A stretch of 64,000 nt of DNA from the NCBI GenBank assembly GCA_021108075.1, contig JAIORP010000178.1:31811-95810 (forward strand). Direction: 5' to 3'. Positions 6,959 through 54,933 of the stretch are shown here, in pieces; position 1 is the first letter of the stretch, and each line of letters opens with the position of its first letter. This DNA comes from Candidatus Omnitrophota bacterium (lineage in GTDB: Bacteria; Omnitrophota; Gorgyraeia; Zapsychrales; Zapsychraceae). The notes below the pieces were generated by a model. It ran no database searches. It was given only the letters and a program-made list of their open reading frames with translations, and was not told the origin of the DNA. The translations under genes were made by a program, and so were the position numbers.

Positions 6959-7020
6959 TTGGGGCGCTCCCGATGAAAGTGAGCGTTTGAACAGGTAAGG
7001 TTATTTTTTGGAAAAAGTTA

Positions 7021-28373: not shown

Positions 28374-28409
28374 AGACATTCTATCAACTCTTTATGATCA
28401 TACCAAATC

Positions 28410-28506
28410 TATTAATAAATTGTTCTATATTAATTTTGATATTCTCGCTAAATCGTCGAGAAAAGCAGAATTGGTGTTGGTCATTATTTAATGGAATTGG
28501 TATAAT
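28410..28506 (+). repeat. Promoter/operator repeat element, copy B (near-consensus), upstream of the 28651 operon
   Basis: Contains the 5' end ATACCAAATCTATTAAT, dyad TTCTCG-N9-CGAGAA (28443..28462), TTGGTC (-35-like), an 18-bp spacer, and TGGTATAAT (28498..28506). Confidence 0.8.
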
Positions 28507-31021: not shown

Positions 31022-31934
31022 AAAAATTTTTGTGGCATTAACGACCTTTGCCCAATACGGTCAAGAACCCGTTGAACGACTGGAAAAAAGCGGGTTTGAT
31101 TTTACGGTCAACAAACTCGGCCGGCGCCTGGTCAAAGAGGAAGTGATCCAGTACGGTCAGGGATGTCAGGGCATTATTGCCGGAGTGGAACCCTATGACG
31201 CGGATGTGATCGATCAAATTCCGTCTTTGGAATGCATCAGCCGGGTTGGTGTCGGGTTGGATAATATTGACTTACGCAAAGCGAAAGAAAAGGGCCTCAT
31301 CATCTGCAACACACCGGATGTGGTGATCCAGCCGGTCGCGGAGATGGCGGTCGCGATGATGTTTGATATGCTGCGGCGGTTATCTTTTCACACCTTAAAA
31401 ATGTGTTCGAAACAATGGGTCAAAAAAGCCGGAAATATGCTGTGCGGTAAAACAGTGGGGATTTTGGGCCTGGGCCGGATCGGCCGAAGGGTCGCGGAAA
31501 TGATGCGAAAACTTGATTTGGAAGTTCGCGGGTATGATGTTCATCCCGATCAGGACTGGGCTAAAAAGAATGGCGTATCTTTAGTTGGATTAGACGACGT
31601 GTTGTCAACGGCCGATATTCTCAGCCTGCACCTGGCCAGTGATAAGGACCATCCTTTTGTGTTGGGCTCAGCAGAGATATCAAAGATGAAAGACGGGGCG
31701 ATGCTCATCAATTTAGCGCGTGGCCAATTTGTTGATGAACAGGCCTTATATGACGCGCTTAAAGAAGAGAAGCTGGCGGGCGCGGCGCTTGATGTGTATT
31801 CACGTGAACCGTATGACGGCCCTTTATGCGGGTTGGATTCGGTGATCTTAACCCCGCATGTGGCCACATTAACGAAAGAATCGCGGCTGCAGATGGAAGT
31901 CGAAGCGACCGGGAACTTGATGAAAAACTTATAA
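31008..31934 (+). CDS. D-isomer-specific 2-hydroxyacid dehydrogenase (NAD-binding)
   Basis: GILGLGRIGRRVA NAD motif and catalytic R ... E ... H layout; 308 aa. Confidence 0.75.
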   Translation: MSMSKKIFVALTTFAQYGQEPVERLEKSGFDFTVNKLGRRLVKEEVIQYGQGCQGIIAGVEPYDADVIDQIPSLECISRVGVGLDNIDLRKAKEKGLIICNTPDVVIQPVAEMAVAMMFDMLRRLSFHTLKMCSKQWVKKAGNMLCGKTVGILGLGRIGRRVAEMMRKLDLEVRGYDVHPDQDWAKKNGVSLVGLDDVLSTADILSLHLASDKDHPFVLGSAEISKMKDGAMLINLARGQFVDEQALYDALKEEKLAGAALDVYSREPYDGPLCGLDSVILTPHVATLTKESRLQMEVEATGNLMKNL

Positions 31935-32030
31935 TAAATATGTTCAAACTTATCATTGAATAGTGATGTTGCTATTTGATCAGCGTTGGTATTTTAAAAG
32001 GTTAATCAGTGATATTGAGGCATGAAGTTT

Positions 32031-32064
32031 CCCCCTTATCTTGCTGCGGGGTGCGGGGTTCATT
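32031..32064. repeat. GC-rich hairpin motif (CCCCNTANCTTGCTGCGGGGTGCNGGGTTCATT family), copy 1, at the left boundary of the defense island
   Basis: CCCCCTTATCTTGCTGCGGGGTGCGGGGTTCATT is near-identical to 49353..49385. Confidence 0.7.
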
Positions 32065-32296
32065 CAAATCAATTCATGCACCGTTTTTATTCTGACAAGA
32101 GAAAGAAAAGAATAGTTGTCGTGCCACGCAAATGTGTGGTATAAAAGAGTTATCCCCTACACATAGTAATTCCCCGAATCACGTTTATTTAAACTTCAAA
32201 TCATTGTCCCGCATTAGAGAGGGAAAATTTGGACGTTAAAAAAGTAAAACCTTTGCTGGTAAATTATGGCGGGGTTTCTTTCATTTATATATAAGA

Positions 32297-33670
32297 ATGG
32301 GATTTAAAGCGAACAATAACAAAGGGGGCTTTCGTATGGAAAATGTTAATAATATTGATATAATACAAATTAAGAAGGGTACAACATCAGAACAATTAGA
32401 TAGCGATGAACAAATGAAAAAAGAAAAAAAGGATTTAAAGGTCTTATCATTATTCTCAGGTTGCGGCGGTTTAGATTTAGGATTTGAGGGTGATTTTTCA
32501 GTTTTAAAAAACTGTTTAAATAAAAGCGTTCATCCCGAATGGTTTAATGGTGGAAATAATTCTCAGTGGGTGAAAGTTCCTAAAACAAAATTTAAGGTTG
32601 TCTTCGCTAATGATATTATGCCTGCCGCTCGATCTTCATGGTTACCTTATTTCCAAAGTAAAGGAAATAGTGTGATTTTTCATACGGAAAGCATAGTCGA
32701 ACTTGTTAAAAAACATAAAAAAGGTAAAAAGATTTTTCCAAAGGTTGACGTGGTGACTGGTGGGTTCCCCTGTCAGGATTTCAGCGTCGCTGGAAAACGG
32801 AAAGGTTTTAATTCTCATAAAGGACATCATGGGGATCTTTTAACCTCAAAAGATAAGCCTACAGAAGAAAACAGAGGTAAGTTATACATGTGGATGAGGC
32901 ATGTTATCGATATAGTGCGCCCTAAAATGTTTATCGCTGAAAATGTCAAAGGTTTGGTTACTTTAGCGGACGCTAAAGTAATTATAGAAAATGATTTTCG
33001 TTCGATAGGTGAAGGTGGGTACGTGGTTGTTAGCGCTAAAGTGTTGTCCGCCGCTGATTATGGTGTTTCACAACGACGGGAACGCGTTCTTTTCATTGGT
33101 TTTAGAAAAGACACGTTGAAGAAGAAAGCTCTTCAGGCTTTTTCGAACGGGATTATACCTGAAGAGTTTGACCCATATCCAAGACCCACGCATGGCACGT
33201 CAAGAAACAATTGCGTTAGACCTTATGTTACCGTTAAACAAGCTTTGGTGGGTTTATATGAACCTGAAAGATCTTCTGATCTAGCGCAAAAATCTTTTTC
33301 AAGAGCGAAATGGTATGGCAGACATTGCCAAGGGCAAAATGAAGTCAATTTAAATGGCTTGGGGCCAACTATTCGTTCTGAACATCACGGAAACATTGAG
33401 TTTAGACGATTATCTCCAGATAATGGAGGTAAATACCTTGATGAAATTAAAAAGGGCATGAAAGAAAGAAGGTTAACTGTAAGGGAGTGCGCCAGATTAC
33501 AAACTTTTCCTGATGATTACGCGTTTGTTAGAAATTCTTCCACGAATGGAAATGGCTATAATCTCAGCGCTTCTGAGGGTTATAAATTAATTGGCAATGC
33601 GGTGCCTCCACTACTTGGTTTCCATTTGGCTTGGCGGTTGCAAGAAATATGGTCGGACGTTTTTAAATGA
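32297..33670 (+). CDS. DNA (cytosine-5)-methyltransferase, restriction-modification type
   Basis: Motif I LFSGCGGLDLGFE, motif IV GGFPCQDFSVAG, motif VI ENVKGL, motif VIII QRRERV, motif X GNAVPP; 457 aa. More likely start at 32336 (MENVNN). Confidence 0.85.
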   Translation: MGFKANNNKGGFRMENVNNIDIIQIKKGTTSEQLDSDEQMKKEKKDLKVLSLFSGCGGLDLGFEGDFSVLKNCLNKSVHPEWFNGGNNSQWVKVPKTKFKVVFANDIMPAARSSWLPYFQSKGNSVIFHTESIVELVKKHKKGKKIFPKVDVVTGGFPCQDFSVAGKRKGFNSHKGHHGDLLTSKDKPTEENRGKLYMWMRHVIDIVRPKMFIAENVKGLVTLADAKVIIENDFRSIGEGGYVVVSAKVLSAADYGVSQRRERVLFIGFRKDTLKKKALQAFSNGIIPEEFDPYPRPTHGTSRNNCVRPYVTVKQALVGLYEPERSSDLAQKSFSRAKWYGRHCQGQNEVNLNGLGPTIRSEHHGNIEFRRLSPDNGGKYLDEIKKGMKERRLTVRECARLQTFPDDYAFVRNSSTNGNGYNLSASEGYKLIGNAVPPLLGFHLAWRLQEIWSDVFK

Positions 33671-34797
33671 TACTATCTTCCAAGCGTGAAACGAAAAACA
33701 AACAATTTGAAGAACTGCTATCTTCCAGCCAACAGATTTTAGAAAAGAAAAATAAGTCTCACCCACCTTATTTCTCCAAGCGAACACCAACGGAATTTGA
33801 GAAGGATGTGCATGCCGCCATGGAGAAAGCCTCTATTGGCACGCCTTTTGAAGGCACTATTCAGTTAGTTTCTGGCCACCGTTTCCCAGATATTATTGAC
33901 GATGGATATTACGGTGTCGAAGTCAAAACCACTAAGACTAATTGGAAGAGTACGGGTAATAGCGTTTTAGAATCCACGAGAGTGGATAAAATTGAAAGAA
34001 TTTATTTGTTTTTCGGGCGTCTTTCTGACGCGGTCGCTTTCAAATTTCGAAGGTACGAAGAATGTTTGCATGAGGTTGCGGTAACGCATTCCCCCAGATA
34101 TTTAATTGACATGAATTTAGACGCTGGTAAAAGCATATTTGATAAAATGAAAATATCTTATGACGAGTTAAGAAAATTAGATAAACCAATAAAGCCTTTT
34201 GTTCAATATTATCGTTCAATCGCTCAATCGGGTGAAGAGCCATGGTGGATGGAAGGCGCTGATGATGAGGAAGAAACACTCGTGAAGCCCACGGTGTCTT
34301 TATGGAATAGTCTTCCCGTTGATGAGCAAGAAACCATGCGCAATCAAGCGATGGCCTTATTCCCGGAAGTGTTTAGTAATCGTTCCACGAAATACCATAA
34401 TCTTTCTTTATGGTTAGCGACCAGAAAAGGCGTTGTGGATTCATCACTAAGAGATAGGTTCACGGCTGGTGGACGAGAAACGCTTATAGTTAATGGTAAA
34501 AAATATAAAGATGTTCCAAAAATATTTTATCATTTAAAAGGAAATTTAGATAAAGTCGTTAAGCTCGTTAAAAAATTAGATCCTGAAGAAGCGAAATATT
34601 TTTGGAAAGTGGATCAAAACTTAGGTTCTTACACACTCCTGCCAACCTGGCTTGATTTAGTTGTTGGCTACGCGGAGAAGAACCTTGGGAGTAAAGGGAA
34701 GTTTATTGTGCATCTGATAGGTGATTATGCTGGTGAAAAGAACTCCTCACTATTTCTAAAAGAGGAAATGGCGAAATATGGATTAGATTATTCTTAA
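33667..34797 (+). CDS. Putative type II restriction endonuclease (PD-(D/E)XK candidate) cognate to the C5-MTase
   Basis: 376 aa ORF placed between the MTase and vsr with a 4-bp overlap; contains FPDIIDDGYYGVEVKT, which fits a PD-x(n)-ExK nuclease core. Confidence 0.45.
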   Translation: MILSSKRETKNKQFEELLSSSQQILEKKNKSHPPYFSKRTPTEFEKDVHAAMEKASIGTPFEGTIQLVSGHRFPDIIDDGYYGVEVKTTKTNWKSTGNSVLESTRVDKIERIYLFFGRLSDAVAFKFRRYEECLHEVAVTHSPRYLIDMNLDAGKSIFDKMKISYDELRKLDKPIKPFVQYYRSIAQSGEEPWWMEGADDEEETLVKPTVSLWNSLPVDEQETMRNQAMALFPEVFSNRSTKYHNLSLWLATRKGVVDSSLRDRFTAGGRETLIVNGKKYKDVPKIFYHLKGNLDKVVKLVKKLDPEEAKYFWKVDQNLGSYTLLPTWLDLVVGYAEKNLGSKGKFIVHLIGDYAGEKNSSLFLKEEMAKYGLDYS

Positions 34798-34798
34798 T

Positions 34799-35263
34799 AT
34801 GAAAAGAAAAATTAAAAATAAGTTGGGGAGAAATTTTAATCGTGAACGGCAAAAAGATAAGATTACGACTGATAAACGTTCCTCTGTGATGTCAAAAATA
34901 CGATCACGGGGAACAAAGTTTGAGACGGATTTCATAGACGAACTTTCGAGAATGGTAAAAGAAAAATTTGAAACGCACGTTAAGGATATTAGGGGTAAAC
35001 CAGACATTGTGTTCCGCGGTAAAAAGGTTTGTGTTTTTTTGGACAGCAACTTCTGGCACGGTTGGCAGTATCCTCGTTGGAAGCATTTATTAAAGAATGA
35101 TTTTTGGCGAAATAAGATAGAAAAAAATAGACTACGAGATCGAAATACAACCCAGTATTTACGACGTGAGGGATGGGCGGTTATTAGGATTTGGGAACAC
35201 TCCATAAAGAATGATATAGGGGTAGCCTTGAGGAGAATAATGGATGGAGTTGCCAATGGGTAA
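34799..35263 (+). CDS. vsr: Very short patch repair endonuclease
   Basis: RGKPDIVFRGKKVCVFLDSNFWHGW and C-terminal GWAVIRIWEH match the Vsr signature (DxxFWHG ... W.VLR.WE); 154 aa. Confidence 0.85.
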   Translation: MKRKIKNKLGRNFNRERQKDKITTDKRSSVMSKIRSRGTKFETDFIDELSRMVKEKFETHVKDIRGKPDIVFRGKKVCVFLDSNFWHGWQYPRWKHLLKNDFWRNKIEKNRLRDRNTTQYLRREGWAVIRIWEHSIKNDIGVALRRIMDGVANG

Positions 35264-35416
35264 AGAAATTAATATAGATAGTTGATTATTGTAATTGGGC
35301 GATATTCCGTGAATGGGAAACTCAAGACATAAGATCTTATGAATTAATCAGGAAGGCTGTTAAGAGTGAATATAATATTTTTCGGAGTGGCGAGACTTTT
35401 TATTATTGATTATAAA

Positions 35417-35455
35417 TGATGACCGCCCTGACTACTCTTTCGAGAGAGCCTTCTG
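35417..35455. repeat. 39-bp direct repeat, left copy (TGATGACCGCCCTGACTACTCTTTCGAGAGAGCCTTCTG) flanking the TIR-NTPase gene
   Basis: Identical 39-mer found again at 38185..38223; read directly from the sequence. Confidence 0.9.
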
Positions 35456-35543
35456 TCAAAATAAAAGATGTCAGGTATTATATGTTGTTATTCCTGGATT
35501 TATTATTCATTATTTCAGGTGAGAAATTATAAAGGAGAAAACA

Positions 35544-38171
35544 TTGGATATGAAAAATTATGCATCAAAAATGTTTATTAGCTATTCTCATGAAGACGAA
35601 TTATATATGGTTGAATTAAGGAAGCACTTAATTCTCTTAGAAAAAAAAGGCATATTAAACCAATGGTGTGATAAGGAGTTGGTCGCTGGGGATGAATTAC
35701 AGCCCGAGATAATGAAACATTTAGAAGATGCAGATATTATAGCATTTTTAGTAAGTATTGACTTCCAGAGTTCGGATTTCTGTGTTCGAGTAGAATTAGC
35801 GAAGGCTTTGGAGAAGAAAAAGAATCAGGGTGCTGTTATTATTCCAATAATAGTTCGAACATGTAGATGGCAAGATAGTGTGCTTGGCCAATTTGTAGCA
35901 GCAACAAAAAACGGCAACCCTATTTCGGATTATGAGAATGCCGACAAAGCTTGGGTTGAGGTTAGCATGTCTATTGAAAAAGTTGTTGAAAAATTCAATA
36001 AACAAAGAATTGAAAATAAGCCTGAGGATCAAGGCAAAACATTTTTTTTGAAAGAAGAATTTTTAAATGAATTAAACAATACAGAAATAATATTTCAGCA
36101 TAAACATAAAGAGTTTGTAACTCTGGAGGATATATATGTTTTTCCTGATGTAAAAGATTTAAAGAAGGAATACGATAAAATAGAATTGTTGATAAATTCT
36201 GAGCATATTCTTTCATTTGAAGAAGAACAACACCAAGATAAAATATTAATATTAGGAACGGAACAAGCTGGTAAAACTTCTTTAGCGAAAATGATGTTAA
36301 AAATTAGTTTGAATGCTAGCTGGCTGCCTGTTTTTGTTAAAGGGACAGAAATTAAAAGCTCTGATACAAGTGATATGTTGATGAAGTTGATTCCTGAGCA
36401 ATATCAAAAATTGACAAGAGATGAATATTTTAATCAATCTAGAAAGAAAATTTTATTTGTAGATGATTATCATCAATCGAAGTTGAATTCTAAGTATAGA
36501 TTTAGATTTGTTGATTCAGTAGTGAAGCAGTTTGATAAAGTTATTTTGTTTTCTGATAGTATGATGAAGTTTGATGAAATTAATTATTCCCATTTTTCAG
36601 GCTTCTATCAATACGAAATATTGCCTTTGGGGCATGAGCGAAGAGGGGTATTGATTGATAAATGGAATAGCATGGGGCAATCTGAAACGATTGATATTAA
36701 TGCTCTTTATCAAAGAAATGATATTGCAACTATGCACTTGAACGCCATACTAAGGAAGAATGTTGTTCCATCAAAACCACTATATGTTCTGACAATTATA
36801 CAATTGTTAGATACATCAGTTCCATCCGACTATACTTTGACATCTTATGGACATTGTTATCAAACGTTAATTCAACAAGCATTGCAAAAGGTGAAGGTGA
36901 CCATTAAGGATTTTGAGTTATATATTAATTACTTGTCAGAACTAGCATATTATATATTTGAATCAGGTAAAGACATAATAAATGAAGATGCCTTGTTTGC
37001 TTTTCAGCATGAATATTCTAATAAATATATTTTGGATTCTCACAAGAATGTTTTAAGTGTTCTAACAAAAGCAGGCATTTTGAGAATTGGTGATTCAGGG
37101 AATTGTTTTTGTTATCGTTATATTTATTATTTTTACGTGGCAAAGTATATTGCAGACCATCTTCAGACAGCTGATTGTAAAAAGACTGTAGAATATCTTT
37201 GCAAACGGATGCACACGGAGAGAAACGCAAATATTTTAATATTTCTAACTCATCACAGTAAAAATCAGGAGATTTTAGATAAAATATATTCATATACCAC
37301 AGATATATTTAAAGGAATAAATCAGGCTAAGTTGGACTCAGAAGAAACTGATTATTTGGCGGAATTTATGGGAGCAATTCCTCAGTTAGTTATTGAGCAG
37401 AGAAATGCTGAAGAGGAAAGAAAGAAAAAAGTTATAAGAAAAGATAAGATTGAAAGAGATGAGCAGGGCGAAGAGAATGAAGCTGACGATTTGAACGAAA
37501 GTACTCTAGCCGAAATCAATAAATCTTATAGGGCTGTTGATATTATTGGACAAATATTGAGGAATCGGCAGAATTCCTTAACAAGAAAGCAATTGTATGA
37601 TTTGACTTCGTCAGCATTTTCTTCAGGATTAAGATTTCTGAAATTTTTTCTTAATTTAACAACAAAATCAAAAGATGAAATATTAAACGTTATTAAGCAT
37701 CTGATTGAAGAGGATTCCAAGGTGTCTGGAGATGAGATGCCAAAGAAACATAAAATATCCGATGAGGACATAACAAAAAAAGCAAAAAGAATATTTCTAA
37801 TGATAAGTTATGGGATGTCATACTCGGTGATTAAGAAAATAGCTAATTCTACTGGGTCAAAAGAACTTATGCCAATCCTTAATAAAATTGATGAAGACAA
37901 TCCTGGTTCACCCGCTATTAAGCTAATTCAAATAGCAGCTCACCTTGAATTTGCAAAAACTATACCTGAAAAAGAAATACTTGCGTTGGATAAGACTTTA
38001 GAGAAAAATTTAATTGCTAAAAGGTTGTTGCAAGAAATAATTGTTCAATATTTATATTTACATAATGTTGACTACAAAAAAAGACAATGGATAGCTAGTA
38101 AATTAAAAATACCTTTAAGTTTTCAGCGAGAACTTCAACACGAAAAAGCTACAAAGGTGTTGGCTAAGTAG
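35544..38171 (+). CDS. TIR-domain + P-loop NTPase (STAND-like) protein with long alpha-helical C-terminal region; candidate antiphage defense protein
   Basis: N-terminus KMFISYSHEDE ... ADIIAFLVS ... RVELAKAL fits a bacterial TIR domain. Walker A LGTEQAGKTS and Walker B ILFVDDYHQ follow. 875 aa; conspicuously AT-rich codon usage. Confidence 0.75.
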   Translation: MDMKNYASKMFISYSHEDELYMVELRKHLILLEKKGILNQWCDKELVAGDELQPEIMKHLEDADIIAFLVSIDFQSSDFCVRVELAKALEKKKNQGAVIIPIIVRTCRWQDSVLGQFVAATKNGNPISDYENADKAWVEVSMSIEKVVEKFNKQRIENKPEDQGKTFFLKEEFLNELNNTEIIFQHKHKEFVTLEDIYVFPDVKDLKKEYDKIELLINSEHILSFEEEQHQDKILILGTEQAGKTSLAKMMLKISLNASWLPVFVKGTEIKSSDTSDMLMKLIPEQYQKLTRDEYFNQSRKKILFVDDYHQSKLNSKYRFRFVDSVVKQFDKVILFSDSMMKFDEINYSHFSGFYQYEILPLGHERRGVLIDKWNSMGQSETIDINALYQRNDIATMHLNAILRKNVVPSKPLYVLTIIQLLDTSVPSDYTLTSYGHCYQTLIQQALQKVKVTIKDFELYINYLSELAYYIFESGKDIINEDALFAFQHEYSNKYILDSHKNVLSVLTKAGILRIGDSGNCFCYRYIYYFYVAKYIADHLQTADCKKTVEYLCKRMHTERNANILIFLTHHSKNQEILDKIYSYTTDIFKGINQAKLDSEETDYLAEFMGAIPQLVIEQRNAEEERKKKVIRKDKIERDEQGEENEADDLNESTLAEINKSYRAVDIIGQILRNRQNSLTRKQLYDLTSSAFSSGLRFLKFFLNLTTKSKDEILNVIKHLIEEDSKVSGDEMPKKHKISDEDITKKAKRIFLMISYGMSYSVIKKIANSTGSKELMPILNKIDEDNPGSPAIKLIQIAAHLEFAKTIPEKEILALDKTLEKNLIAKRLLQEIIVQYLYLHNVDYKKRQWIASKLKIPLSFQRELQHEKATKVLAK

Positions 38172-38184
38172 AATTCAGAATAAC

Positions 38185-38223
38185 TGATGACCGCCCTGAC
38201 TACTCTTTCGAGAGAGCCTTCTG
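38185..38223. repeat. 39-bp direct repeat, right copy, followed by an inverted-repeat stem (CCGCCCTG ... CAGGGCGG) and a T-run
   Basis: Identical to 35417..35455. The downstream GGGCTCTTATTATCAGGGCGGAACCTTTTTT can pair with the CCGCCCTGA inside the repeat. Confidence 0.9.
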
Positions 38224-38538
38224 GGGCTCTTATTATCAGGGCGGAACCTTTTTTAAATTTAATAAGTATAGCACATTGATTAAACTTGTGTATGAAAGTG
38301 TACTTATAATAATGAAAACAATTTTTTTAGTGGCGAATATGTGTTAGATACCTTTTCTTTGGGATACGTTCGTATGCAATTATGAAAATGAAAAGTATCA
38401 GTTTTCATTTTTTGCGTATTACATGTTTTTTATGATGTTCGTGTATTTTTCAATATAGAAAGAAAAGACGGTTCGTCATGCCTGTTTCCAAGAAGCATTG
38501 ATCGGATTCGGAAAAGATATCGAGAAGAAATTTATTTA

Positions 38539-39459
38539 ATGAGTTCAATTTTAAATTGTCCGGTTTGCGATCATCCATTTGATGAAGGTGACGCGAAAAG
38601 CACGGCCTATCCGCAGGCAGGAACCGCGGGTTTTGGGCCTATGCCGCGGTCCATTCATTTTTGTCCGGAATGTCAGGCGGGTTTTATCACGACGGTCATT
38701 AACCAGGAGGAATTGGACCGGTACTATCAACAGGGCCGTTATTGGGACCAATCTTTTAACCGGCTTTCTATCCACACGCATCCGGGGCAATTTGTGCTCG
38801 CTCAATCCAGATGGGATATCATTAAAAACCAGATGTCCGCCGGCGAGTGTTCGATCTTAGATATCGGCGCGGGGCAGGCCTTCTTAGGCTGGATCGCGGC
38901 AAAAGACCCGTCTGTTTCGGTGGAGCGTTATTGCGCTGTCGAATCTGATGACAACTTGCGCGCGTCGGTCCAAAAGACATGGTCTGCTGGCGCGATCGAC
39001 GCGAAGTTGTCATTAAAGGAGAGTTTAGATCACGTTGAAGGGCGTTATGACTTGATCGTCTTATCGCATATTCTGGAACATATTTCCCGCCCGCAGGAAT
39101 TTTTAAGGCAAGCGCTGTCGTTCCTGACGGGAGACGGTTTGCTGTTTATTGACGTGCCCAATCAGGATTATCGGTTTAAGCCGGATGTCTTTCCGCATTT
39201 GCTCTTTTTTGATATTATGAGTTTAACGCGTTTGATCCAACATTCAGGATTGAGTGTGCTGAGTATAAACACATATGGTCCTTCGATCACACAGAAATTG
39301 AAAAGGCCAGGCGCGATGGAAAGAACGCTGGAACGCTGTGTTTATCGATTCAGAAAAATATTGCCTTCAGCCGCGTTACAAGGATTTTTCAGCGGACATT
39401 TTAAGGTTAATCGTTGCCAGGAAGATGGTCTCTGGCTCAGGGCTTTAGCCCGTCGGTAG
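38539..39459 (+). CDS. Class I SAM-dependent methyltransferase with N-terminal zinc-ribbon
   Basis: CPVCDHPFDEGD ... CPECQAGF then ILDIGAGQAFLGW SAM motif; 306 aa; GC-richer than the preceding island. Confidence 0.6.
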   Translation: MSSILNCPVCDHPFDEGDAKSTAYPQAGTAGFGPMPRSIHFCPECQAGFITTVINQEELDRYYQQGRYWDQSFNRLSIHTHPGQFVLAQSRWDIIKNQMSAGECSILDIGAGQAFLGWIAAKDPSVSVERYCAVESDDNLRASVQKTWSAGAIDAKLSLKESLDHVEGRYDLIVLSHILEHISRPQEFLRQALSFLTGDGLLFIDVPNQDYRFKPDVFPHLLFFDIMSLTRLIQHSGLSVLSINTYGPSITQKLKRPGAMERTLERCVYRFRKILPSAALQGFFSGHFKVNRCQEDGLWLRALARR

Positions 39460-40044: not shown

Positions 40045-41861
40045 TATCAATTATATTTATAAACAAGGCAAATCGGTTGAAGGCTGTTCTGGACGCCTGT
40101 TCGGATTCAACATGCGCCGTGCTGCGGGTGTTGTATAACCAACAGACGCCCGTGATACTGAACAAGCTAAGGGAACGCGGGGTTAAATATAAACAGATCA
40201 AAGGCCGGGATTATATCGCGCGGTATCAAAATAGTTATTCGCGATTCATAGGAGCTCTGAACATGAAATACGCGGGGCTTCATTGGTGGGCCCTGGACCT
40301 GACCAATAAAAATCCGATTACAACCCGTTTATTTGACGCGGTTTATTGCACCCTCTTAATTGAGAAGCTTGTTGAAAAAGGGGAATTTCAGACGATTGTC
40401 GTTATCAGTGAGGACAAAGACTGTTGTCGGCAGATACAGAGAAATCACGCGGAAAGTGTGAATGTCCATGTTCAAGATTTGACCGTGACCTTCCCGGTGA
40501 AAAAGTTTCTTCAACGGATATTCCCTTTAGGCCCCGTGTATAAGTTTTTATGGGCTTTAACAGGAAAATGTTGGGCCGCGTTGAATCTTCCCGCCCAAAA
40601 AAATTGGGAGAAAGCACCCACGCATTTTATTATGTCTTTGCTTTATGATCCCTGTTTTAAGACCGGCGAATATCAGGATGTCTACTTTGGCCCGTTTGTT
40701 GAATTCATGGCTGAGCGGAATATTCCGTTTGTCAATGTGATGGAGGTCTGCGCCCCGTATCATAAGATGATGAAACAGACCAAACAGAAAGCAAAACGTT
40801 TTGCCGTCTATCCGAAAGAATCGTTTTTATCCGTGAAGCACATGTTCATGAGCCTGATAGCCGCCCTCAAAGCTTTTTATCGCCCGGTCCGTTTGGACGC
40901 CCCGTGCGAGATCGATGGTGTTTGTTGTCAGTATCTCCTCAGACGATATATGCGTTATGAATATGTTTCAACCCGTTATTGTTCCAATCTGCTCATGTTT
41001 TACGCGTTTACCGATATTGCCCGGCAGTTTCCCGGTTGCACCATTTATTATCCTTTTGAAAACCGGTCGTTTGAAAAGATGATCATCAGCGCCGTCCGGC
41101 AGCATCCGTCGCGGATAAAATTAATCGCGTATCAACATGCCTCGGCAACGCTGCGTCATACGAATTTTTTGTTGGCGCAGGGAGAAGAAAAAATATTACC
41201 GCTACCGGACCGCGTTTACACTTTGGGAAGCATTACCCGGAATTTTATCATTGAGCAGGGCGGCTTTCCGCGGGAACTGTTTGTTGAGGGATGTGCTCTG
41301 CGGCAAAAACCTTATACCGGTGCGATCAAAAAGAAGTCCCCGGGCGTGAAGAAATTGCTGGTTGCCTTAGCGACCAACATTGAAGAATATGTCAAAGCTT
41401 TGTTATTTCTGTCTGAAGCGTTTGAATCCGGACAGGGTGAGTATGAGGTCTGGATCCGGCCGCATCCGGTTTTTCCGCTTGAAGACGCCCTGGCGATCAC
41501 GGGCCCGTTATCATTTCATTTTCATCAAGCGGATCAAGAGACCTTACCCGCATCCTTTCAATGGGCGGATATTCTTCTTTTTGTTCATTCTATGGTCGCG
41601 ATTGAAGGTTTGATGTATGGACTGCCGTGCCTGCGCCTCGTGGTGGATAACCCGGTTGATCCTGATCCATTGTTAGGGTGGACAGATTTTAAATGGGATG
41701 TCGCGCGACCGAAGAATTTGATAAAAACTATTGCGTCGATAGAGGCTCTTAGTGATAATGATTTCTATTCCAGGCAGAAAAAAGGCTGTTGTTTTCCTCA
41801 GGAATACATGCGGCCGGTTACAAAGGCGTTTTTAAACACACTTTTATACCAATTCCATTAA
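40041..41861 (+). CDS. Hypothetical protein, 606 aa; possible glycosyl/nonulosonyl transferase, about the same size as 19658..21484
   Basis: Long ORF with ATGA overlap to the acetyltransferase; no recognisable catalytic motif. Confidence 0.4.
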   Translation: MISIIFINKANRLKAVLDACSDSTCAVLRVLYNQQTPVILNKLRERGVKYKQIKGRDYIARYQNSYSRFIGALNMKYAGLHWWALDLTNKNPITTRLFDAVYCTLLIEKLVEKGEFQTIVVISEDKDCCRQIQRNHAESVNVHVQDLTVTFPVKKFLQRIFPLGPVYKFLWALTGKCWAALNLPAQKNWEKAPTHFIMSLLYDPCFKTGEYQDVYFGPFVEFMAERNIPFVNVMEVCAPYHKMMKQTKQKAKRFAVYPKESFLSVKHMFMSLIAALKAFYRPVRLDAPCEIDGVCCQYLLRRYMRYEYVSTRYCSNLLMFYAFTDIARQFPGCTIYYPFENRSFEKMIISAVRQHPSRIKLIAYQHASATLRHTNFLLAQGEEKILPLPDRVYTLGSITRNFIIEQGGFPRELFVEGCALRQKPYTGAIKKKSPGVKKLLVALATNIEEYVKALLFLSEAFESGQGEYEVWIRPHPVFPLEDALAITGPLSFHFHQADQETLPASFQWADILLFVHSMVAIEGLMYGLPCLRLVVDNPVDPDPLLGWTDFKWDVARPKNLIKTIASIEALSDNDFYSRQKKGCCFPQEYMRPVTKAFLNTLLYQFH

Positions 41862-41924
41862 AGAATTGTACAAATAACGAGAGCAAATCCAATAAATGTG
41901 CGCCACGATAATTCTTCTGACTTC

Positions 41925-42000
41925 TCATCGCTATTCGCGTAAAAGCGTTCGCGAAATACGATGAGAATTTTTGGCAATTATTTTATGGATTTGGTATTAA
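41925..42000 (+). repeat. Diverged partial copy of the promoter/operator element upstream of the radical SAM operon
   Basis: TTCGCG-N10-CGCGAA dyad followed by TTGGCAATTATTTTATGGATTTGGTATTAA, alignable to the 3' half of the consensus. Confidence 0.55.
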
Positions 42001-42009
42001 CAGGAAGCC

Positions 42010-43122
42010 ATGAAAAGACTCCATAGGTTATTATTCATCAATATCCCTTTATTGATACGCGCGGCCATCATTAAGGTTTGTCCGCCGATATATCCTGTTT
42101 TACGGTTTAAACCGTATTTAGCCACATTGAACGTCACGGAGAAATGTTGTCTGCGGTGTATCATGTGCAATCTATGGCGGGAATCTCATCCTGATGAGTT
42201 GAAAAAAGATGATTGGTTCAGGATTTTGGATGAGCTAAAGCTGGCAGGGGTTCAGGAAGTTAATTTCACCGGAGGGGAAGCCTTGATGCGCACGGATATC
42301 TTTGATTTGATTCATCACGCGAACACGTCAGGGATGAAATGCGGGTTAACCACAAACGGCTACCTTTTAACAGAAAAGAATATTAACCGTTTGATTCAAT
42401 CCGGGGTCAGGATTTTTAATATTTCCATGGATGCTGTCGGTTCCGCGTATGATGACATTCGGGGTGTCCAGGGCGGCTATGAACGGTTATATTCCGCCTG
42501 CCAACGTTTAAGCCGGGTTAAGAAAGAACAGGGTGTTGACGTGTATCTGTGTTTTTTATTGATGAAAAAAACGTTGGCGCATTATAAAAGTGTTCTGGCG
42601 ATCGGCGAAGAGTCAGGGTTGCCTGTTGTGATTAACCTGTTTGATGTGAACCCTTATTTTTTTCAATCGGCGGCTAAAAAAGATGATTTTTGGATCGGGC
42701 GGGAAGAGCAAAAGGAGTTTAAGGAATTCTTAAAATATATGGTGAATCAAAAAAGTCAAAACAAAGACTTTACGTATCATTCTTTCATCGAAATCGATTA
42801 TTTCTCAAAATATTTTAAGGACCCCCTGCAGAAGACCCTGCCGTGCGTCGTGTCACAAAGCCGGCTGTGCGTCGGACCAAAAGGGCAAGTTTACGGGGGT
42901 TGTTGGGCGATGGGAGAATATGGCCAGCTGCGTCAGCAATCATTAAAGGATATCATGCGTTCGGATAAGTTTAAAACGGCCCATAAAAAGATGTTTTTTA
43001 AAGATTGTCCCGGGTGTTCTTGCGGTTACGCCACGAATTTAAGATATTCGTTTAGAAATGTTTTAACAGAACTGGGGTACAGAATGTTCCCTAAAAAAAG
43101 AGAGAAGATTTATATTTCATGA
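42010..43122 (+). CDS. Radical SAM protein with C-terminal Cys-rich (SPASM-like) region
   Basis: CCLRCIMC (CxxxCxxC) near the N-terminus, C-terminal CPGCSCGY cluster; 370 aa. Confidence 0.7.
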   Translation: MKRLHRLLFINIPLLIRAAIIKVCPPIYPVLRFKPYLATLNVTEKCCLRCIMCNLWRESHPDELKKDDWFRILDELKLAGVQEVNFTGGEALMRTDIFDLIHHANTSGMKCGLTTNGYLLTEKNINRLIQSGVRIFNISMDAVGSAYDDIRGVQGGYERLYSACQRLSRVKKEQGVDVYLCFLLMKKTLAHYKSVLAIGEESGLPVVINLFDVNPYFFQSAAKKDDFWIGREEQKEFKEFLKYMVNQKSQNKDFTYHSFIEIDYFSKYFKDPLQKTLPCVVSQSRLCVGPKGQVYGGCWAMGEYGQLRQQSLKDIMRSDKFKTAHKKMFFKDCPGCSCGYATNLRYSFRNVLTELGYRMFPKKREKIYIS

Positions 43123-45473: not shown

Positions 45474-46640
45474 ATGAGAATATTAATTGTTCATAATCAA
45501 TACACTGAGCCCGGAGGAGAAGATAAGATTGTTGAGGCGGAACAATCTTTGTTGACTTCTCATGGGCATGATGTTGAGCTTTATCTCCGTTCAAATAACG
45601 AACTGAAGCGGAAGAGTATATTCAGAAAACTCAAATTTGTCTATCTAGAGGTGTTTTCCTCCAAGAAAACGTATTACGATGTATTAGATATGATTAATGC
45701 GTTTGGACCGGACATTGTTCATGTCCATAATATTTTTTTGATGATATCCCCCGCCATTTATGATGTTTGTTTTCAAAAAAAAATCCCTGTCGTGCAAACA
45801 ATTCACAACTACCGTTTTTTTTGCAGCAATGGTTTATTTTTTCGGGAGGGGCGGGTGTGTGAAGACTGTATCTCAAAAGGACCAATTTCTGCTATCACTT
45901 ATCGCTGTTGGCGCAGGTCCATGCTGGCGTCAGGATTGATGACAAAAGTACAGGATAAACTTCATCGAGAATATTTAAATAGTGATAAAATATCGCGCTA
46001 TATCGCTCCTTCGGAATTTACCCGCAAGAAATGCGTTGAATGTGGATTGCCCGAAGATAAGATCGCCGTGAAACCGCATTTTTCACCGGATAAACCGTTT
46101 GAAAATAAGAGCCCCGGGGAATATGTCGCGTTCGTCGGGCGACTTATTGATTACAAGGGGATTATCCTGCTGCTGGAATGTTTTAAAGACTTAAAGGATA
46201 TTCCTTTAAAGATCATTGGTGACGGGCCGTTACATGCTGATGTTGAGCGCGTGGCCGCGGACAATCCACAGATTTCCTTTCTAGGTTACCGGTCGTCCGA
46301 ACAGGTTGGTGAACTATTGTCCAAAGCCGCTTATATTGTTTGTCCGTCTCCTTGTTATGAAACGTTTGGCCGGGTTGTCGTCGAAGCGTTTAGCCAGGGA
46401 ACACCCGCGCTCGTATCAAGAGGCGGGGCGTTAGAAGAGCTGATAACAGATCCTTGTCTCGGTGTTATTGCCGAAGACAATCAACCTCAATATTTCAGAT
46501 CTGCGGCAAAGGATTTGTGGCTGAACGTGCAAAGGGGCGGGGTCGATTTTCAAAAGATCAGGGATATCTATGACCGTCGATATACAGCAGATATTAATTA
46601 TAAGATGATGATGTCCATTTATACCAGTTCCATTAAATAA
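45474..46640 (+). CDS. Family 4 (GT-B, retaining) glycosyltransferase
   Basis: C-terminal E-x7-E region CPSPCYETFGRVVVEAFSQGTPAL; 388 aa. Confidence 0.75.
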   Translation: MRILIVHNQYTEPGGEDKIVEAEQSLLTSHGHDVELYLRSNNELKRKSIFRKLKFVYLEVFSSKKTYYDVLDMINAFGPDIVHVHNIFLMISPAIYDVCFQKKIPVVQTIHNYRFFCSNGLFFREGRVCEDCISKGPISAITYRCWRRSMLASGLMTKVQDKLHREYLNSDKISRYIAPSEFTRKKCVECGLPEDKIAVKPHFSPDKPFENKSPGEYVAFVGRLIDYKGIILLLECFKDLKDIPLKIIGDGPLHADVERVAADNPQISFLGYRSSEQVGELLSKAAYIVCPSPCYETFGRVVVEAFSQGTPALVSRGGALEELITDPCLGVIAEDNQPQYFRSAAKDLWLNVQRGGVDFQKIRDIYDRRYTADINYKMMMSIYTSSIK

Positions 46641-46712
46641 TGACCAAAACCAATTCTGCTGTTCAGAATTAAGATAGAACAATTTATTAATGGATTTGGT
46701 ATTACCAGAACG
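46641..46712 (-). repeat. Promoter/operator repeat element, inverted (minus-orientation) copy, upstream of the 46743 gene
   Basis: The reverse complement of 46641..46706 reads ATACCAAATCCATTAATAAATTGTTCTATCTTAATTCTGAACAGCAGAATTGGTTTTGGTCA. Confidence 0.75.
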
Positions 46713-48188: not shown

Positions 48189-48389
48189 TGAAACACACTG
48201 TTAAAAATCAGGTAACGATACAGGTCTCACCCGGTCCAAAGATCCGGAAAACGCTCATTGACAAAAATTGTATTTATTTTTTGACGATACGAGAAAATAA
48301 TGTTTAAGTATTATTCATGAAAGAGACAACATCAGAAGAAGCCCGCGTGAATTAATCTTTATTTATGAACGATTCGATCAGGCCTGGGC

Positions 48390-48910
48390 CAATCATATGG
48401 TTGATTGTCAGGTCAAAATCAAAAATAAAGTCGATACGGCCAAAGCTAACGGTTTAGATCAACTCAGTCAAGGACAACAAAATTATTGACACAAGCAATA
48501 TCGGGAAATTATTACTGAAGGTCATCAGGCCAATCCGTGGAGGATCCTCCTGACACACAGCGTAAGCGCGGTCGTCCGTAAAAAGGAAAAACACGATGTT
48601 TGCTTGAGCGTTTGGATGGTCATTGGCGCAAGGTATTACGCTTCATGTATGATTTTCGTATTCCTTTTGACAACAACTTATCCGAGCGGGATGTACGCAT
48701 GATGAAAGTCCGTCAGAAAATTTCAGGAACATTCCATCCGCCGGATATGGCCTCAATCTTCCGCGAGATGCGCCGTTTTATCTCAACGGTTCGTAAGCAG
48801 TGAATCCCTCTTCTGCATGCCATCGACCTGATCTTCACGGGCCAACCGTTAAAGCTGTTCGTTCACCAAATTATCGGTGAGCGCCTGTCGAGCTTTTGGG
48901 CCGGGTGAGA
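48390..48910 (+). pseudogene. IS66-family transposase (TnpC) C-terminal remnant, frameshifted
   Basis: Pieces in different frames: QYREIITEGHQANP, PPDTQRKRGRPKKGK, LERLDGHWRKVLRFMYDFRIPFDNNLSERDVRMMKVRQKISGTFH, then ...LHAIDLIFTGQP. Together they match the conserved C-terminus of IS66 transposases. There is no intact ORF or N-terminal part. Confidence 0.55.
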
Positions 48911-49111
48911 CCGGAATAGTTACATATAAAGAAAGTCTTCCCGATCATGCATCCTGAAACCACCTTTGCCAGAAAGTGTGTCGACTTGTATTCAGATAGC
49001 TGCAAAAAATAGTTGAAGGGAATGATCGGGACGAAGAAGGCTGTTTTTTAGATTAACGTTTATTTTATATTTATTACAGGAGTTTATTTGTGCTGGCGAA
49101 TCATCGTGTTT

Positions 49112-49190
49112 ATACCAAATCCATTAATAAATTGCTCTATCTTAATTCTGAAAAGCAGAATTTGTTTTGGTCATTATTTAATCGAAAGAA
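49112..49190 (+). repeat. Promoter/operator repeat element, internally deleted/interrupted copy in the IS-remnant region
   Basis: ATACCAAATCCATTAATAAATTGCTCTATCTTAATTCTGAAAAGCAGAATTTGTTTTGGTCATTATTTAAT. The dyad segment is missing. The 3' end, TCATTGGAATTGGTATTATT, is displaced to 49381..49400. Confidence 0.65.
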
Positions 49191-49352: not shown

Positions 49353-49385
49353 CCCCGTAGCTTGCTGCGGGGTGCTGGGTTCATT
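49353..49385. repeat. GC-rich hairpin motif, copy 2 (a partial third copy lies at 49194..49220)
   Basis: CCCCGTAGCTTGCTGCGGGGTGCTGGGTTCATT; CCCCG/CGGGG forms a 5-bp stem around a 10-nt loop. Confidence 0.7.
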
Positions 49386-49749
49386 GGAATTGGTATTATT
49401 AGAAGATTTCAGGGGTAGCCCACATCCCGACAATTTTGCTTCTGGTTGGCTATGTGTTTTTCTGGATAGAACTTTTTTTCCTGGAGCATCCGACCGGACA
49501 TACGACCTGAATGGCTTGGGTCGTTCTTGCGCTAAGCATTATTATTATTTGTGTAAATAACGCAAAAGACATCAGGGATTTGGCCTATCAAAGCCGGTTC
49601 CTCCACAAAATATCCGCTCGACATTTGTTATCAAGCAGGCGGATTCCTCCCAATAATATTAATAAATATTTTATAAATAATTGTGTGCTGTTTGGTCGAT
49701 ATTCTTTATAATTAATAACGTACGACAATAAATAAGATAAGGATACAAT

Positions 49750-54847: not shown

Positions 54848-54933
54848 ATGTTCTATTTTAGTTTTTATATTCTCGCTAAAGCGTCGAGAAAAGCAGAATT
54901 GGTTTTGGTCATTATTTAATGGAATTGGTATCA
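54828..54933 (+). repeat. Promoter/operator repeat element, copy D (near-consensus), overlapping the stop codon of the 54314..54847 CDS
   Basis: ATACCAAATCCATTAATTAAATGTTCTATTTTAGTTTTTATATTCTCGCTAAAGCGTCGAGAAAAGCAGAATTGGTTTTGGTCATTATTTAATGGAATTGGTATCAG, with dyad TTCTCG (54870..54875) / CGAGAA (54885..54890). Confidence 0.8.

What the first reader, a model, noticed from the sequence alone, without database searches (positions are those of the whole stretch)
35417..38223. Perfect 39-bp direct repeats bracket the TIR-NTPase gene exactly, giving a cassette-like structure
TGATGACCGCCCTGACTACTCTTTCGAGAGAGCCTTCTG occurs at 35417..35455, 89 bp upstream of the start codon, and again at 38185..38223, 14 bp after the stop codon. 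Only the right copy is followed by a sequence (TCAGGGCGG) complementary to the CCGCCCTGA inside the repeat, plus a T-run. The right copy can therefore form a stem or terminator that the left copy cannot. The repeat also contains the small palindrome CTCTTTCGAGAGAG. Perfect 39-bp repeats flanking one defense gene suggest site-specific or homologous recombination-mediated gain or exchange of a gene cassette (attL/attR-like or integron-like), or a conserved insulator flanking a swappable slot. No integrase is nearby.
Basis: seen in the sequence. Interest (0 to 1): 0.7.

Follow-up and report, generated by a model that had tools for sequence, protein, structure and literature searches.

The report
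Immune gene inserted into small-RNA gene
The two identical 39-base repeats are the duplicated tail of a small structured RNA gene that normally sits beside a DUF3800 gene; a TIR immune gene landed inside that RNA gene, so the repeats look like a one-off insertion scar and not a general cassette-swapping site.

Summary
A perfect 39-mer lies at 35417-35455 and 38185-38223, extending to 44 nt with one mismatch, and only the right copy completes a branched hairpin. The repeat does not belong to the TIR gene. It is part of 'E', a ~70-nt three-way-junction element found just after the stop codon of one DUF3800 subfamily in about 35 loci from many phyla. E shows strong covariation: 99% of cells paired and 10 of 18 pairs compensatory. 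G·U pairs, GNRA/UNCG loops and a sub-threshold Rfam hit (RF02968, DUF3800-IX) place the RNA on the strand opposite DUF3800, the window's minus strand. The left 39-mer sits in the native position, 7 nt after a 43-codon DUF3800 remnant (35278-35409). So the 2.73-kb TIR-STAND (PDC-S60) segment was inserted into E, duplicating the RNA's 3'-terminal 39-44 nt and leaving one intact RNA gene. The whole 6.6-kb block (type II R-M, DUF3800 remnant, TIR, E) is an island absent from the orthologous polysaccharide locus of a related Omnitrophota genome. Seven loci with TIR-STAND homologs have no such repeats, and no other E copy is split. The insertion mechanism is unresolved. Verdict: an insertion scar in a known kind of enigmatic RNA, of moderate interest.

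The parts
31925..38547 (.). Inserted low-GC defence island of 6.6 kb inside a polysaccharide-biosynthesis operon. It contains everything listed below.
   Evidence: L038, a related Omnitrophota contig at 72-78% nt identity, is collinear on both sides. It has 28 nt here, and the 2-Hacid_dh and Methyltransf_23 genes abut. GC is 30-41% against about 45% in the flanks. There are no direct repeats at the outer ends.
32297..33670 (+). C5 cytosine DNA methyltransferase of a type II R-M system
   Evidence: Pfam DNA_methylase 2e-50; PADLOC MTase_II 2e-75
33667..34797 (+). Type II restriction endonuclease
   Evidence: PADLOC REase_II 9e-34; no Pfam hit
34799..35263 (+). Vsr very-short-patch repair endonuclease
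   Evidence: Pfam Vsr 1e-15
35278..35409 (+). Remnant of a DUF3800 gene: the last 43 codons plus the stop codon, equivalent to residues 179-221 of a 221-aa protein
   Evidence: The frame ends ...SEYNIFRSGETFYY*, compared with ...SEFDIFxxGKTLYY* in intact genes. tblastn gives 58% identity, E 6e-15, and there is no other DUF3800 in the window. The intact homologs match Pfam PF12686 and PADLOC DUF3800_VII.
35417..35455 (-). Left repeat copy. It is the displaced 3'-terminal fragment of the E RNA gene, left in its native position next to the DUF3800 remnant. It cannot form the closing stem.
   Evidence: The model R1 scores only 14 bits here.
35456..38184 (+). Inserted 2,729-bp segment: a 94-nt AT-rich leader plus the TIR-STAND NTPase gene (CDS 35550-38171, 873 aa)
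   Evidence: PADLOC PDC-S60 6e-105 and ThsB-like TIR 2e-42. Pfam TIR_2 and nSTAND_NTPase4. GC about 30-32%. No terminal inverted repeats.
38183..38254 (-). Intact E element, a DUF3800-IX-like structured RNA motif with a closing stem, two hairpins and a UAG junction. It includes the right repeat copy at 38185-38223. Read on the + strand, it is also a hairpin plus T6 run that could terminate TIR transcription.
   Evidence: Model R1 scores 78 bits, E 4e-21. Fold, covariation, strand evidence.
38265..38292 (-). Promoter-like site (TACACA-16-TATACT with a TG) placed to start a minus-strand transcript near the 5' end of E. This is a consensus match only.
   Evidence: -10-like hexamers are seen at similar positions in several other copies, but this was not tested statistically.

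Best explanation
The repeated 39-mer is the 3'-terminal part of a small structured RNA gene, 'E'. E is a three-way-junction motif related to the DUF3800-IX RNA. It is the constant partner of one DUF3800 gene subfamily and lies convergently, right after the DUF3800 stop codon. In this Omnitrophota defence island the DUF3800 gene has decayed to 43 codons. A 2.73-kb segment carrying a TIR-STAND (PDC-S60) defence gene was then inserted into E. The break lies in the loop of one inner hairpin. The 39-44 nt between that loop and the RNA's 3' end were duplicated. One complete RNA gene now lies distal to the TIR gene, and a non-folding 3' fragment stays beside the DUF3800 remnant. Shown: the identity of the repeat, the native position of the left copy, and the secondary nature of the TIR insert. 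Inferred, and the least certain step: the insertion occurred by conservative recombination between the resident RNA gene and a circular DNA carrying a copy of its 3' end. This is the same geometry as islands that integrate into the 3' ends of tRNA or tmRNA genes. It would have been catalysed in trans or by host homologous recombination, because the insert encodes no recombinase. On the + strand the intact E (hairpin plus T6) probably also serves as the TIR gene's terminator.
For: The exact repeat is confirmed, and it extends to 44 nt with 1 mismatch. The E core pattern found 6 outside loci, all single and intact, 3-5 nt after a DUF3800 stop codon. E-like elements follow every DUF3800 of this subfamily that was examined. 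Model R1 finds one intact copy per locus, including four loci it was not trained on. Covariation is strong: 99.2% of cells paired against 35-53% when slid, 10 of 18 pairs compensatory, 0 of 500 shuffles as high. Strand: the non-Watson-Crick pairs are G·U only on the anti-DUF3800 strand. All 13 copies fold better on that strand. The hairpin loops read GAAA, GCAA and UUCG in that sense. The L025 copy matches Rfam RF02968 (DUF3800-IX) over the full model on that strand at 30.9 bits, E 0.009. The literature reports that DUF3800 genes associate with 11 structured RNA motifs of unknown function (PMC5737381). The DUF3800 remnant lies immediately upstream of the left copy. DNA homology to DUF3800-E loci runs from about 35276 to 35450 and stops in the loop. 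Both copies share lineage-specific bases, the loop TTCTG and an extra TGA, that are absent from all other E copies. TIR-STAND homolog loci lack repeats and E. The TIR segment has lower GC than the R-M genes. The geometry of intact RNA gene, cargo, then 3' fragment matches the tRNA-island pattern; that pattern is established knowledge and was not tested here.
Against: There is no integrase or transposase in the insert or elsewhere in the window, apart from a distant IS66 fragment. This is a single instance: 0 of about 35 other E loci are occupied, so there is no evidence that E is a recurrent attachment site. At the left junction the sequence beyond the 39-mer does not resemble the other hairpin arm, as a symmetric recombinase core would predict. 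Both copies carry the target's own allele-specific bases, which fits a duplicative target-site mechanism at least as well. No circular or empty-site junction could be examined, because de Bruijn contigs simply break inside the repeat. The nearest TIR homolog is only 52% identical, so no donor is known.
Confidence: 0.55

Rival explanations
1. Duplicative insertion, giving a target-site-type duplication. One route is a staggered break, with one nick in the hairpin loop and one at the edge of E. The other is a replication template switch at the stable E hairpin. Either would capture a foreign 2.7-kb fragment, and fill-in or re-copying of 39-44 nt of the target's own sequence would create the repeats. 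No site-specific recombination and no cassette-borne att site would be involved.
For: Both copies carry the window-lineage-specific variants of E, the TTCTG loop and the extra TGA, as expected if one was copied from the other in situ. One boundary lies exactly in a hairpin loop of a very stable structure. The insert has no recombinase and no inverted ends. The event is unique among about 35 loci. TIR homologs have no such repeats.
Against: A 39-44-bp duplication is far longer than usual transposase or end-joining duplications. The A/C mismatch 5 nt outside the perfect block, followed by partial similarity, would need a later mutation. Template-switch insertions of foreign DNA are rarely documented in bacteria (general knowledge).
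Confidence: 0.3
2. Two complete gene-plus-E modules once lay in tandem, DUF3800-E and TIR-E. A later deletion removed the distal part of the first E together with the DNA up to the TIR promoter. Under this reading E would be a general cassette-terminal element, similar to an integron attC site.
For: E marks the end of sequence homology in all DUF3800-E loci, and the flanks beyond it differ. Foreign defence genes have replaced most of the DUF3800 ORF upstream of E in the window and in L012/L016.
Against: E was never found after any gene other than DUF3800, or its remnant, in cellular loci. Seven TIR-STAND homolog loci lack E. The scenario needs two identical E alleles plus a deletion that ends exactly in a loop. 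There are no integron core sites and no IntI (by direct reading).
Confidence: 0.07
3. One reading: the 39-mers are attL/attR-like or insulator sites that define a swappable slot for defence genes.
For: A single defence gene is precisely bracketed by perfect repeats. Repeats of 39 bp would allow precise loss by homologous recombination.
Against: The 39-mer is not an autonomous site. It is a fragment of a longer conserved RNA motif tied to DUF3800. The genome, metagenome and viral scans found no other cargo between such repeats. No recombinase was found.
Confidence: 0.05
4. E is merely a Rho-independent terminator that was duplicated along with the gene.
For: On the + strand E is a GC-rich hairpin followed by a T6 run, downstream of both the DUF3800 and TIR ORFs.
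Against: One hairpin and the junctions are invariant in sequence across phyla, while the other stems covary. The T-run is separated from the stem by a conserved AACC and is only TTT in most loci. The strand evidence favours the opposite strand. Orphan copies occur in phage contigs in other contexts.
Confidence: 0.03

Closest known systems
DUF3800-IX RNA motif (Rfam RF02968), one of the 11 DUF3800-associated structured RNAs of Weinberg et al. 2017 (PMC5737381)
   Same: It has a closing stem of 9-11 bp that is C-rich on the 5' strand. The stem encloses two adjacent hairpins, with a UAG junction before the 3' strand and a U-rich tail. It lies next to a DUF3800 gene. One E copy (L025) aligns over the whole model. 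The function is unknown in both cases.
   Different: The window copy gives no Rfam match even at E<=10, and the best related copy reaches 30.9 bits against a gathering score of 36.8. Hairpin A of E has its own invariant sequence, AGAGCCC/GGGCUCU. E is fixed in position, 0-30 nt after the stop codon and convergent with the gene.
Genomic islands integrated into the 3' ends of tRNA, tmRNA or small-RNA genes (attL/attR direct repeats)
   Same: The order is an intact RNA gene, then cargo, then a displaced 3' fragment of the same RNA gene as a direct repeat. The identity block runs from a hairpin loop to the RNA's 3' end. The cargo is a defence gene.
   Different: There is no integrase in or near the insert. 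The cargo is a single gene of 2.7 kb. The target is not a tRNA. There is no recurrence at other copies of the target, and no symmetric core at the junction.
Integron gene cassettes and attC sites
   Same: A single gene is followed by a folded, imperfectly palindromic site.
   Different: E is conserved in sequence and belongs to DUF3800, not to the cargo. There are no RYYYAAC/GTTRRRY core sites, no IntI and no array. The left copy is a truncated fragment, not a hybrid site. The insert carries its own leader.
Cis-mobilizable elements (CIMEs), which are integrase-less segments flanked by att sites
   Same: Cargo flanked by direct repeats derived from an attachment site, with no recombination genes.
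   Different: No cognate integrative element or integrase is known for E, and there is no evidence of mobility.
PDC-S60 and Avs-like STAND NTPases with an N-terminal TIR effector (the cargo)
   Same: It matches the PADLOC PDC-S60 model at 6e-105 and has a ThsB-like TIR. Homologs swap the effector domain (TIR, caspase, PNP, metallophosphatase) and sit in defence islands.
   Different: Nothing unusual in the protein itself. The closest homolog is 52% identical.

Membership tests
DUF3800-IX RNA (Rfam RF02968) | Scores at or above the family's gathering threshold (36.8 bits) | tested here: not met
   The window copy gives no match at E<=10. L012-L015 give none. The best related copy, L025, scores 30.9 bits, E 0.009.
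DUF3800-IX RNA (Rfam RF02968) | Closing stem around two adjacent hairpins, with a UAG junction before the 3' strand | tested here: met
   Fold, the alignment to the RF02968 consensus, and pair counts.
DUF3800-associated structured RNAs (Weinberg 2017) | Conserved structure with covariation, found next to DUF3800 genes | tested here: met
   About 35 loci have E 0-30 nt after the DUF3800 stop codon. 10 of 18 pairs are compensatory and 0 of 500 shuffles reach the observed values. The window retains a DUF3800 remnant.
DUF3800-associated structured RNAs (Weinberg 2017) | Expressed as a discrete RNA on the inferred strand | not testable with these tools
   The evidence is indirect only: G·U pairs, GNRA/UNCG loops and folding asymmetry, plus a promoter-like site.
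tRNA/tmRNA-type integrative island (attL/attR) | The direct repeat equals the 3' part of an RNA gene, and one intact gene copy is regenerated | tested here: met
   The 39-mer is the 3'-terminal 39 nt of E in RNA sense. The intact copy is at 38183-38254 and the fragment at 35417-35455.
tRNA/tmRNA-type integrative island (attL/attR) | A tyrosine or serine recombinase is encoded at one end of the island | tested here: not met
   The insert holds only the TIR-STAND ORF. No integrase was found in the window.
tRNA/tmRNA-type integrative island (attL/attR) | The same target is used recurrently, with both occupied and empty sites across genomes | tested here: not met
   All other E copies are unoccupied. 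The only relative of the host lacks the entire island.
tRNA/tmRNA-type integrative island (attL/attR) | Excision produces a circular junction and a restored empty site | not testable with these tools
   Only assembled contigs are available. The k=31 contigs break inside the 39-mer.
Integron cassette / attC | IntI integrase with attI, and arrays of cassettes that each end in an attC | tested here: not met
   No integrase was found. There are only 1.5 copies of E in 64 kb.
Integron cassette / attC | R''/R' core sites RYYYAAC ... GTTRRRY at the ends of the folded site | tested here: not met
   Direct reading of E on both strands finds no GTTRRRY. The only GTT is in GGTTCCG.
Transposon with target-site duplication | Terminal inverted repeats and a transposase | tested here: not met
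   The insert ends TCAAAATAAAAG... and ...CAGAATAAC are not inverted repeats, and there is no transposase ORF.
Intrinsic (Rho-independent) terminator | A GC-rich hairpin immediately followed by a U-run | tested here: inconclusive
   On the + strand a stable branched hairpin is followed by AACC and then T6. The simple terminator scan did not call it. In most other loci the run is only TTT.
PDC-S60 / TIR-STAND defence NTPase (cargo gene) | Match to the PADLOC PDC-S60 profile, with a TIR N-terminus and a STAND NTPase | tested here: met
   PDC-S60 6e-105 and ThsB 2e-42. Pfam TIR_2 and nSTAND_NTPase4.

The most novel reading that the evidence does not exclude
The DUF3800-IX-like RNA gene may serve as an attachment site for integrase-less defence-gene cassettes, in the way tRNA genes serve genomic islands. 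Cargo would integrate at a hairpin loop while regenerating the RNA. That would explain why the RNA stays intact and perfectly conserved even where its DUF3800 partner has decayed (the window, L012/L016), and it would imply selection for the RNA alone. The same RNA also occurs as an orphan in phage contigs (L040, L042), which could be an anti-defence decoy against a DUF3800-RNA module.
Probability: 0.1. Interest if true: 0.65.

Novelty: new variant of a known kind. Interest (0 to 1): 0.36.

Why it matters
The finding changes an apparent cassette-exchange site into something more specific. It is a clean, covariation-supported relative of the DUF3800-associated RNA motifs, whose function has been unknown since 2017. 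Three observations bear on that question. First, the RNA is tightly fixed, convergent and abutting the DUF3800 stop codon, across many phyla. Second, it can outlive its protein partner, and here a rearrangement left it intact. Third, it occurs as an orphan in phage-like contigs. The DUF3800-RNA pair also repeatedly sits inside defence islands and type I R-M operons. That supports reading it as a two-part, defence-related protein-RNA module. The 39-bp repeat itself is best seen as a record of how one defence gene was added to an island. It is useful as an example of defence-island growth at a structured RNA gene, but there is no evidence that it represents a general mechanism.

Tried and rejected
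1. tRNA/tmRNA search and Rfam at gathering threshold over the whole window found nothing. Permissive Rfam scans on the window element and on L012-L015 gave only spurious hits.

2. Exact-protein look-ups of the TIR, Vsr, REase and methyltransferase proteins returned only the same lineage, so they gave no empty site for the TIR insert.

3. Logan contigs that begin or end 30 nt inside the repeat, including a 2,789-bp repeat-to-repeat contig, looked at first like possible circles. They are k=31 de Bruijn breakpoints and carry no information on excision.

4. I looked for flanking repeats, E or DUF3800 around seven TIR-STAND homolog loci and found none.

5. I looked for direct repeats at the outer ends of the 6.6-kb island. 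Only a 12-mer is shared, and I judged the 26-nt 77% match (32100/38457) to be chance.

6. MAFFT misaligned the most diverged E copies, so I replaced it with an Infernal structural alignment.

7. The Weinberg 2017 supplement is not held, so the published description of DUF3800-IX placement could not be checked.

8. The hammerhead-like 'CUGAUGA' just before the right copy was rejected. It is absent from the left copy and from all other loci, and there is no matching core.

9. A viral scan with the 5'-half pattern found nothing. A scan with the invariant hairpin found six loci, of which two were new orphan copies and none was split.
Full report
**1. Observation**

The 39-mer TGATGACCGCCCTGACTACTCTTTCGAGAGAGCCTTCTG occurs exactly twice in the window, at 35417-35455 and 38185-38223. 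No match was seen in shuffled sequence. The similarity extends to 44 nt with one mismatch, 35412-35455 against 38180-38223. The right copy continues into GGGCTCTTATTATCAGGGCGG-AACC-TTTTTT. It folds as a 9-bp closing stem (CCGCCCTGA/TCAGGGCGG) around two small hairpins, with dG -30.8 kcal/mol and z -5.2. The left copy is followed by unrelated AT-rich sequence and does not fold comparably. The repeat ends inside the loop of one inner hairpin.

**2. Setting**

All genes run on the + strand in a long polysaccharide-biosynthesis locus. The host is a Candidatus Omnitrophota MAG. GC falls from about 45% to 30-41% between about 32.0 and 38.2 kb. That block encodes:
- a C5 DNA methyltransferase, a type II restriction enzyme and Vsr;
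- the TIR-STAND gene, which matches PADLOC candidate system PDC-S60 (6e-105) and has a ThsB-like TIR.

A related genome (L038, 72-78% nt identity, collinear on both sides) has only 28 nt in place of window 31925-38547, and its two flanking biosynthesis genes abut. The whole 6.6-kb block is therefore an inserted defence island. Its outer ends carry no repeat.

**3. What the repeated sequence is**

I scanned species-representative genomes and JGI metagenomes for the repeat core, leaving the loop positions free. This gave six loci, each with one complete element ('E'). Each E lies 3-5 nt after the stop codon of a conserved reading frame ending ...SEFDIFxxGKTLYY*. That frame is a 221-aa DUF3800 protein (Pfam PF12686, PADLOC DUF3800_VII).

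In the window, the left repeat copy lies 7 nt after a 43-codon frame...SEYNIFRSGETFYY* (35278-35409). That frame aligns to DUF3800 residues 179-221 at 58% identity, E 6e-15. It is the only DUF3800 trace in the 64 kb. DNA homology to DUF3800-E loci runs from about 35276 to 35450 and stops in the hairpin loop. So the truncated left copy is in the native position, and the TIR gene sits inside E.

**4. E is a real, conserved structure**

DUF3800 homologs of this subfamily come from many phyla. In every locus fetched, an E-like element lies 0-30 nt after the stop codon:
- 9 viral-collection loci;
- 4 contexts of P0182;
- 19 contexts of P0230 and P0184.

I built a covariance model from nine copies. 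It found one intact copy per locus, including four loci it was not trained on. In the window it found one intact copy (38183-38254, minus strand, 78 bits) and the fragment (14 bits).

On the structural alignment of 14 distinct copies:
- 99.2% of cells pair, against 35-53% when the 3' partners are slid by 1-3 columns;
- 10 of 18 pairs show compensatory changes;
- no shuffle out of 500 reaches the observed values.

One caveat is that this alignment was fitted to the model. One hairpin (AGAGCCC/GGGCUCU) and the junctions are nearly invariant, while the closing stem and the other hairpin covary. E is far better conserved than the adjacent coding DNA. Its DUF3800-proximal half, the first 32 nt on the + strand, is identical between the window and the L012-L017 copies, which include an Ignavibacteria MAG (L012). 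The adjoining DUF3800 codons are only about 70% identical.

**5. Strand and family**

- The only non-Watson-Crick pairs are G·U on the strand opposite DUF3800. On the DUF3800 strand they would be C·A.
- All 13 copies fold more stably on the opposite strand.
- The variable hairpin's loops read GAAA, GCAA, GCAA and UUCG in that sense, which are GNRA/UNCG tetraloops.
- One copy (L025) aligns over the full Rfam model RF02968 (DUF3800-IX RNA) on that strand, at 30.9 bits, E 0.009. That is below the gathering score of 36.8.
- The window copy gives no Rfam hit even at E<=10.

Weinberg et al. 2017 described 11 unrelated structured RNA motifs next to DUF3800 genes. Several have terminators, and no functional hypothesis was offered (PMC5737381). 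Other work notes that DUF3800 has an RNase H-like fold (PMC7736814, PMC10910872). E is therefore best described as a DUF3800-IX-like variant of this known class. It is not a demonstrated member of RF02968.

**6. Reading the repeat in RNA sense**

On the minus strand the order is:
- a promoter-like site (38292-38265);
- the intact RNA motif (38254-38183);
- the TIR gene, antisense;
- a 39-nt fragment, which is the RNA's 3'-terminal portion from the hairpin-A loop to the tail;
- the DUF3800 remnant, convergent.

This is the geometry of islands integrated into the 3' ends of tRNA or tmRNA genes: an intact gene regenerated at one end and a displaced 3' fragment at the other. The defining recombinase is absent, however. 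The insert contains only the TIR-STAND ORF and a 94-nt leader, and it has no inverted ends. No integrase was found in the window.

**7. Is it a general cassette system? No**

- Seven loci with TIR-STAND homologs (43-52% identity) show no flanking repeats of 12 nt or more, no E and no DUF3800.
- None of about 35 other E loci is split or carries cargo between DUF3800 and E.
- The genome, metagenome and viral scans found no other cargo between such repeats.
- There are no integron core sites (direct reading).

**8. Mechanism**

Shown: the TIR segment (35456-38184) is a secondary insertion into E, with duplication of 39-44 nt of E.

Inferred: how it happened. I favour conservative recombination (probability about 0.4-0.45). 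The partners would be the resident RNA gene and a circular DNA carrying a copy of its 3' end. Either a recombinase acting in trans or RecA could catalyse it; my understanding is that a 39-44-bp homology is long enough for RecA-mediated recombination. The reasons are that this model yields exactly the observed arrangement of a truncated native copy plus an intact distal copy, and that similarity decays gradually on the RNA-3' side (one mismatch, then partial matches) but sharply at the loop.

The main rival (about 0.3) is a duplicative event, meaning a staggered break or a template switch at the stable hairpin. It is supported by both copies carrying bases specific to this lineage's E allele (loop TTCTG, extra TGA) and by the uniqueness of the event.

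Contig data cannot discriminate between these mechanisms. The k=31 contigs simply break 30 nt inside the repeat.

**9. Consequences**

The intact E, read on the + strand, gives the TIR gene a strong hairpin plus a T6 run, which is probably its terminator. The left fragment is probably inert. The 39-bp repeats would permit precise loss of the TIR gene by recombination. In a sister sample the TIR gene already carries a nonsense mutation, Y758*, from 37823 C>A. That suggests it is dispensable.

**10. Verdict**

The feature is a one-off insertion scar within a DUF3800-associated structured RNA gene inside a composite defence island. It is a new variant of a known kind and of moderate interest. The interest lies mostly in what it adds about the enigmatic DUF3800 RNAs.

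Noticed in passing
window 31925-38547; L038 12467-12494: The whole low-GC block (type II R-M, DUF3800 remnant, TIR-STAND, E) is a 6.6-kb insertion in the middle of a polysaccharide-biosynthesis operon. In a related Omnitrophota contig the two flanking genes abut. The outer ends have no direct repeats and no recombinase.
   Followed up: yes
L042 4619-4689 (-); L040 964-1034 (+): Full-length E-like RNA motifs (68 and 56 bits with model R1) occur in phage-like IMG/VR contigs with no DUF3800 gene detectable. In L042 the motif lies between structural genes next to an 835-aa portal-like ORF. In L040 it sits in an ORF-free leader. They could be phage-borne decoys or regulators of DUF3800 modules, but that is speculative.
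   Followed up: partly
L034-L037 3001-3736; L045-L053 (e.g. L045 4001-4748): The DUF3800 + E module is nested inside type I restriction-modification operons, between hsdS (or a neighbouring ORF) and hsdR. This occurs in two different DUF3800 lineages, so it is a recurrent arrangement.
   Followed up: partly
L012 2557-2690; L016 (E-oriented) 3225-3366: A second lineage (Ignavibacteria MAG) also keeps an intact E next to a DUF3800 stump, here only 21 codons long. Upstream there is an Eco57I-like methylase and a 483-aa ORF. In L012 the upstream ORFs are fragmented. So the RNA outlives its protein partner more than once.
   Followed up: partly
window 37823 (L002 position 4112): In a sister sample (ERZ26872904) the TIR-STAND gene carries C>A, changing TAC to TAA (Y758*). 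This is one of only two differences in 8.9 kb, and it splits the gene into 757 + 114 aa.
   Followed up: yes
window 7016-7124, 28392-28505, 46619-46710 (inverted), 49104-49186, 54823-54931, also 41844-41866 and 41974-42014: A family of roughly 45-107-nt repeats (73-95% identical, in both orientations) is scattered through the polysaccharide locus at gene boundaries. They could be a repeated small ORF start, a regulatory box or a MITE-like element.
   Followed up: no
window 32032-32069 and 49353-49390; 48212-48264 / 48871-48923: A GC-rich 38-nt repeat (87%, CCCCNTANCTTGCTGCGGGGTGC...) lies at the left edge of the island and again 17 kb downstream. A 53-nt imperfect inverted repeat pair brackets about 600 bp near a 67-aa IS66-transposase fragment (L001 20062-20265).
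   Followed up: no
L027 2508-2585: About 600 nt beyond the DUF3800-E module in this IMG/VR contig there is a sub-threshold match to the R1162-like plasmid antisense RNA (48 bits, gathering score 55) and to PtaRNA1 on the opposite strand. This hints at a plasmid or type I TA context.
   Followed up: no
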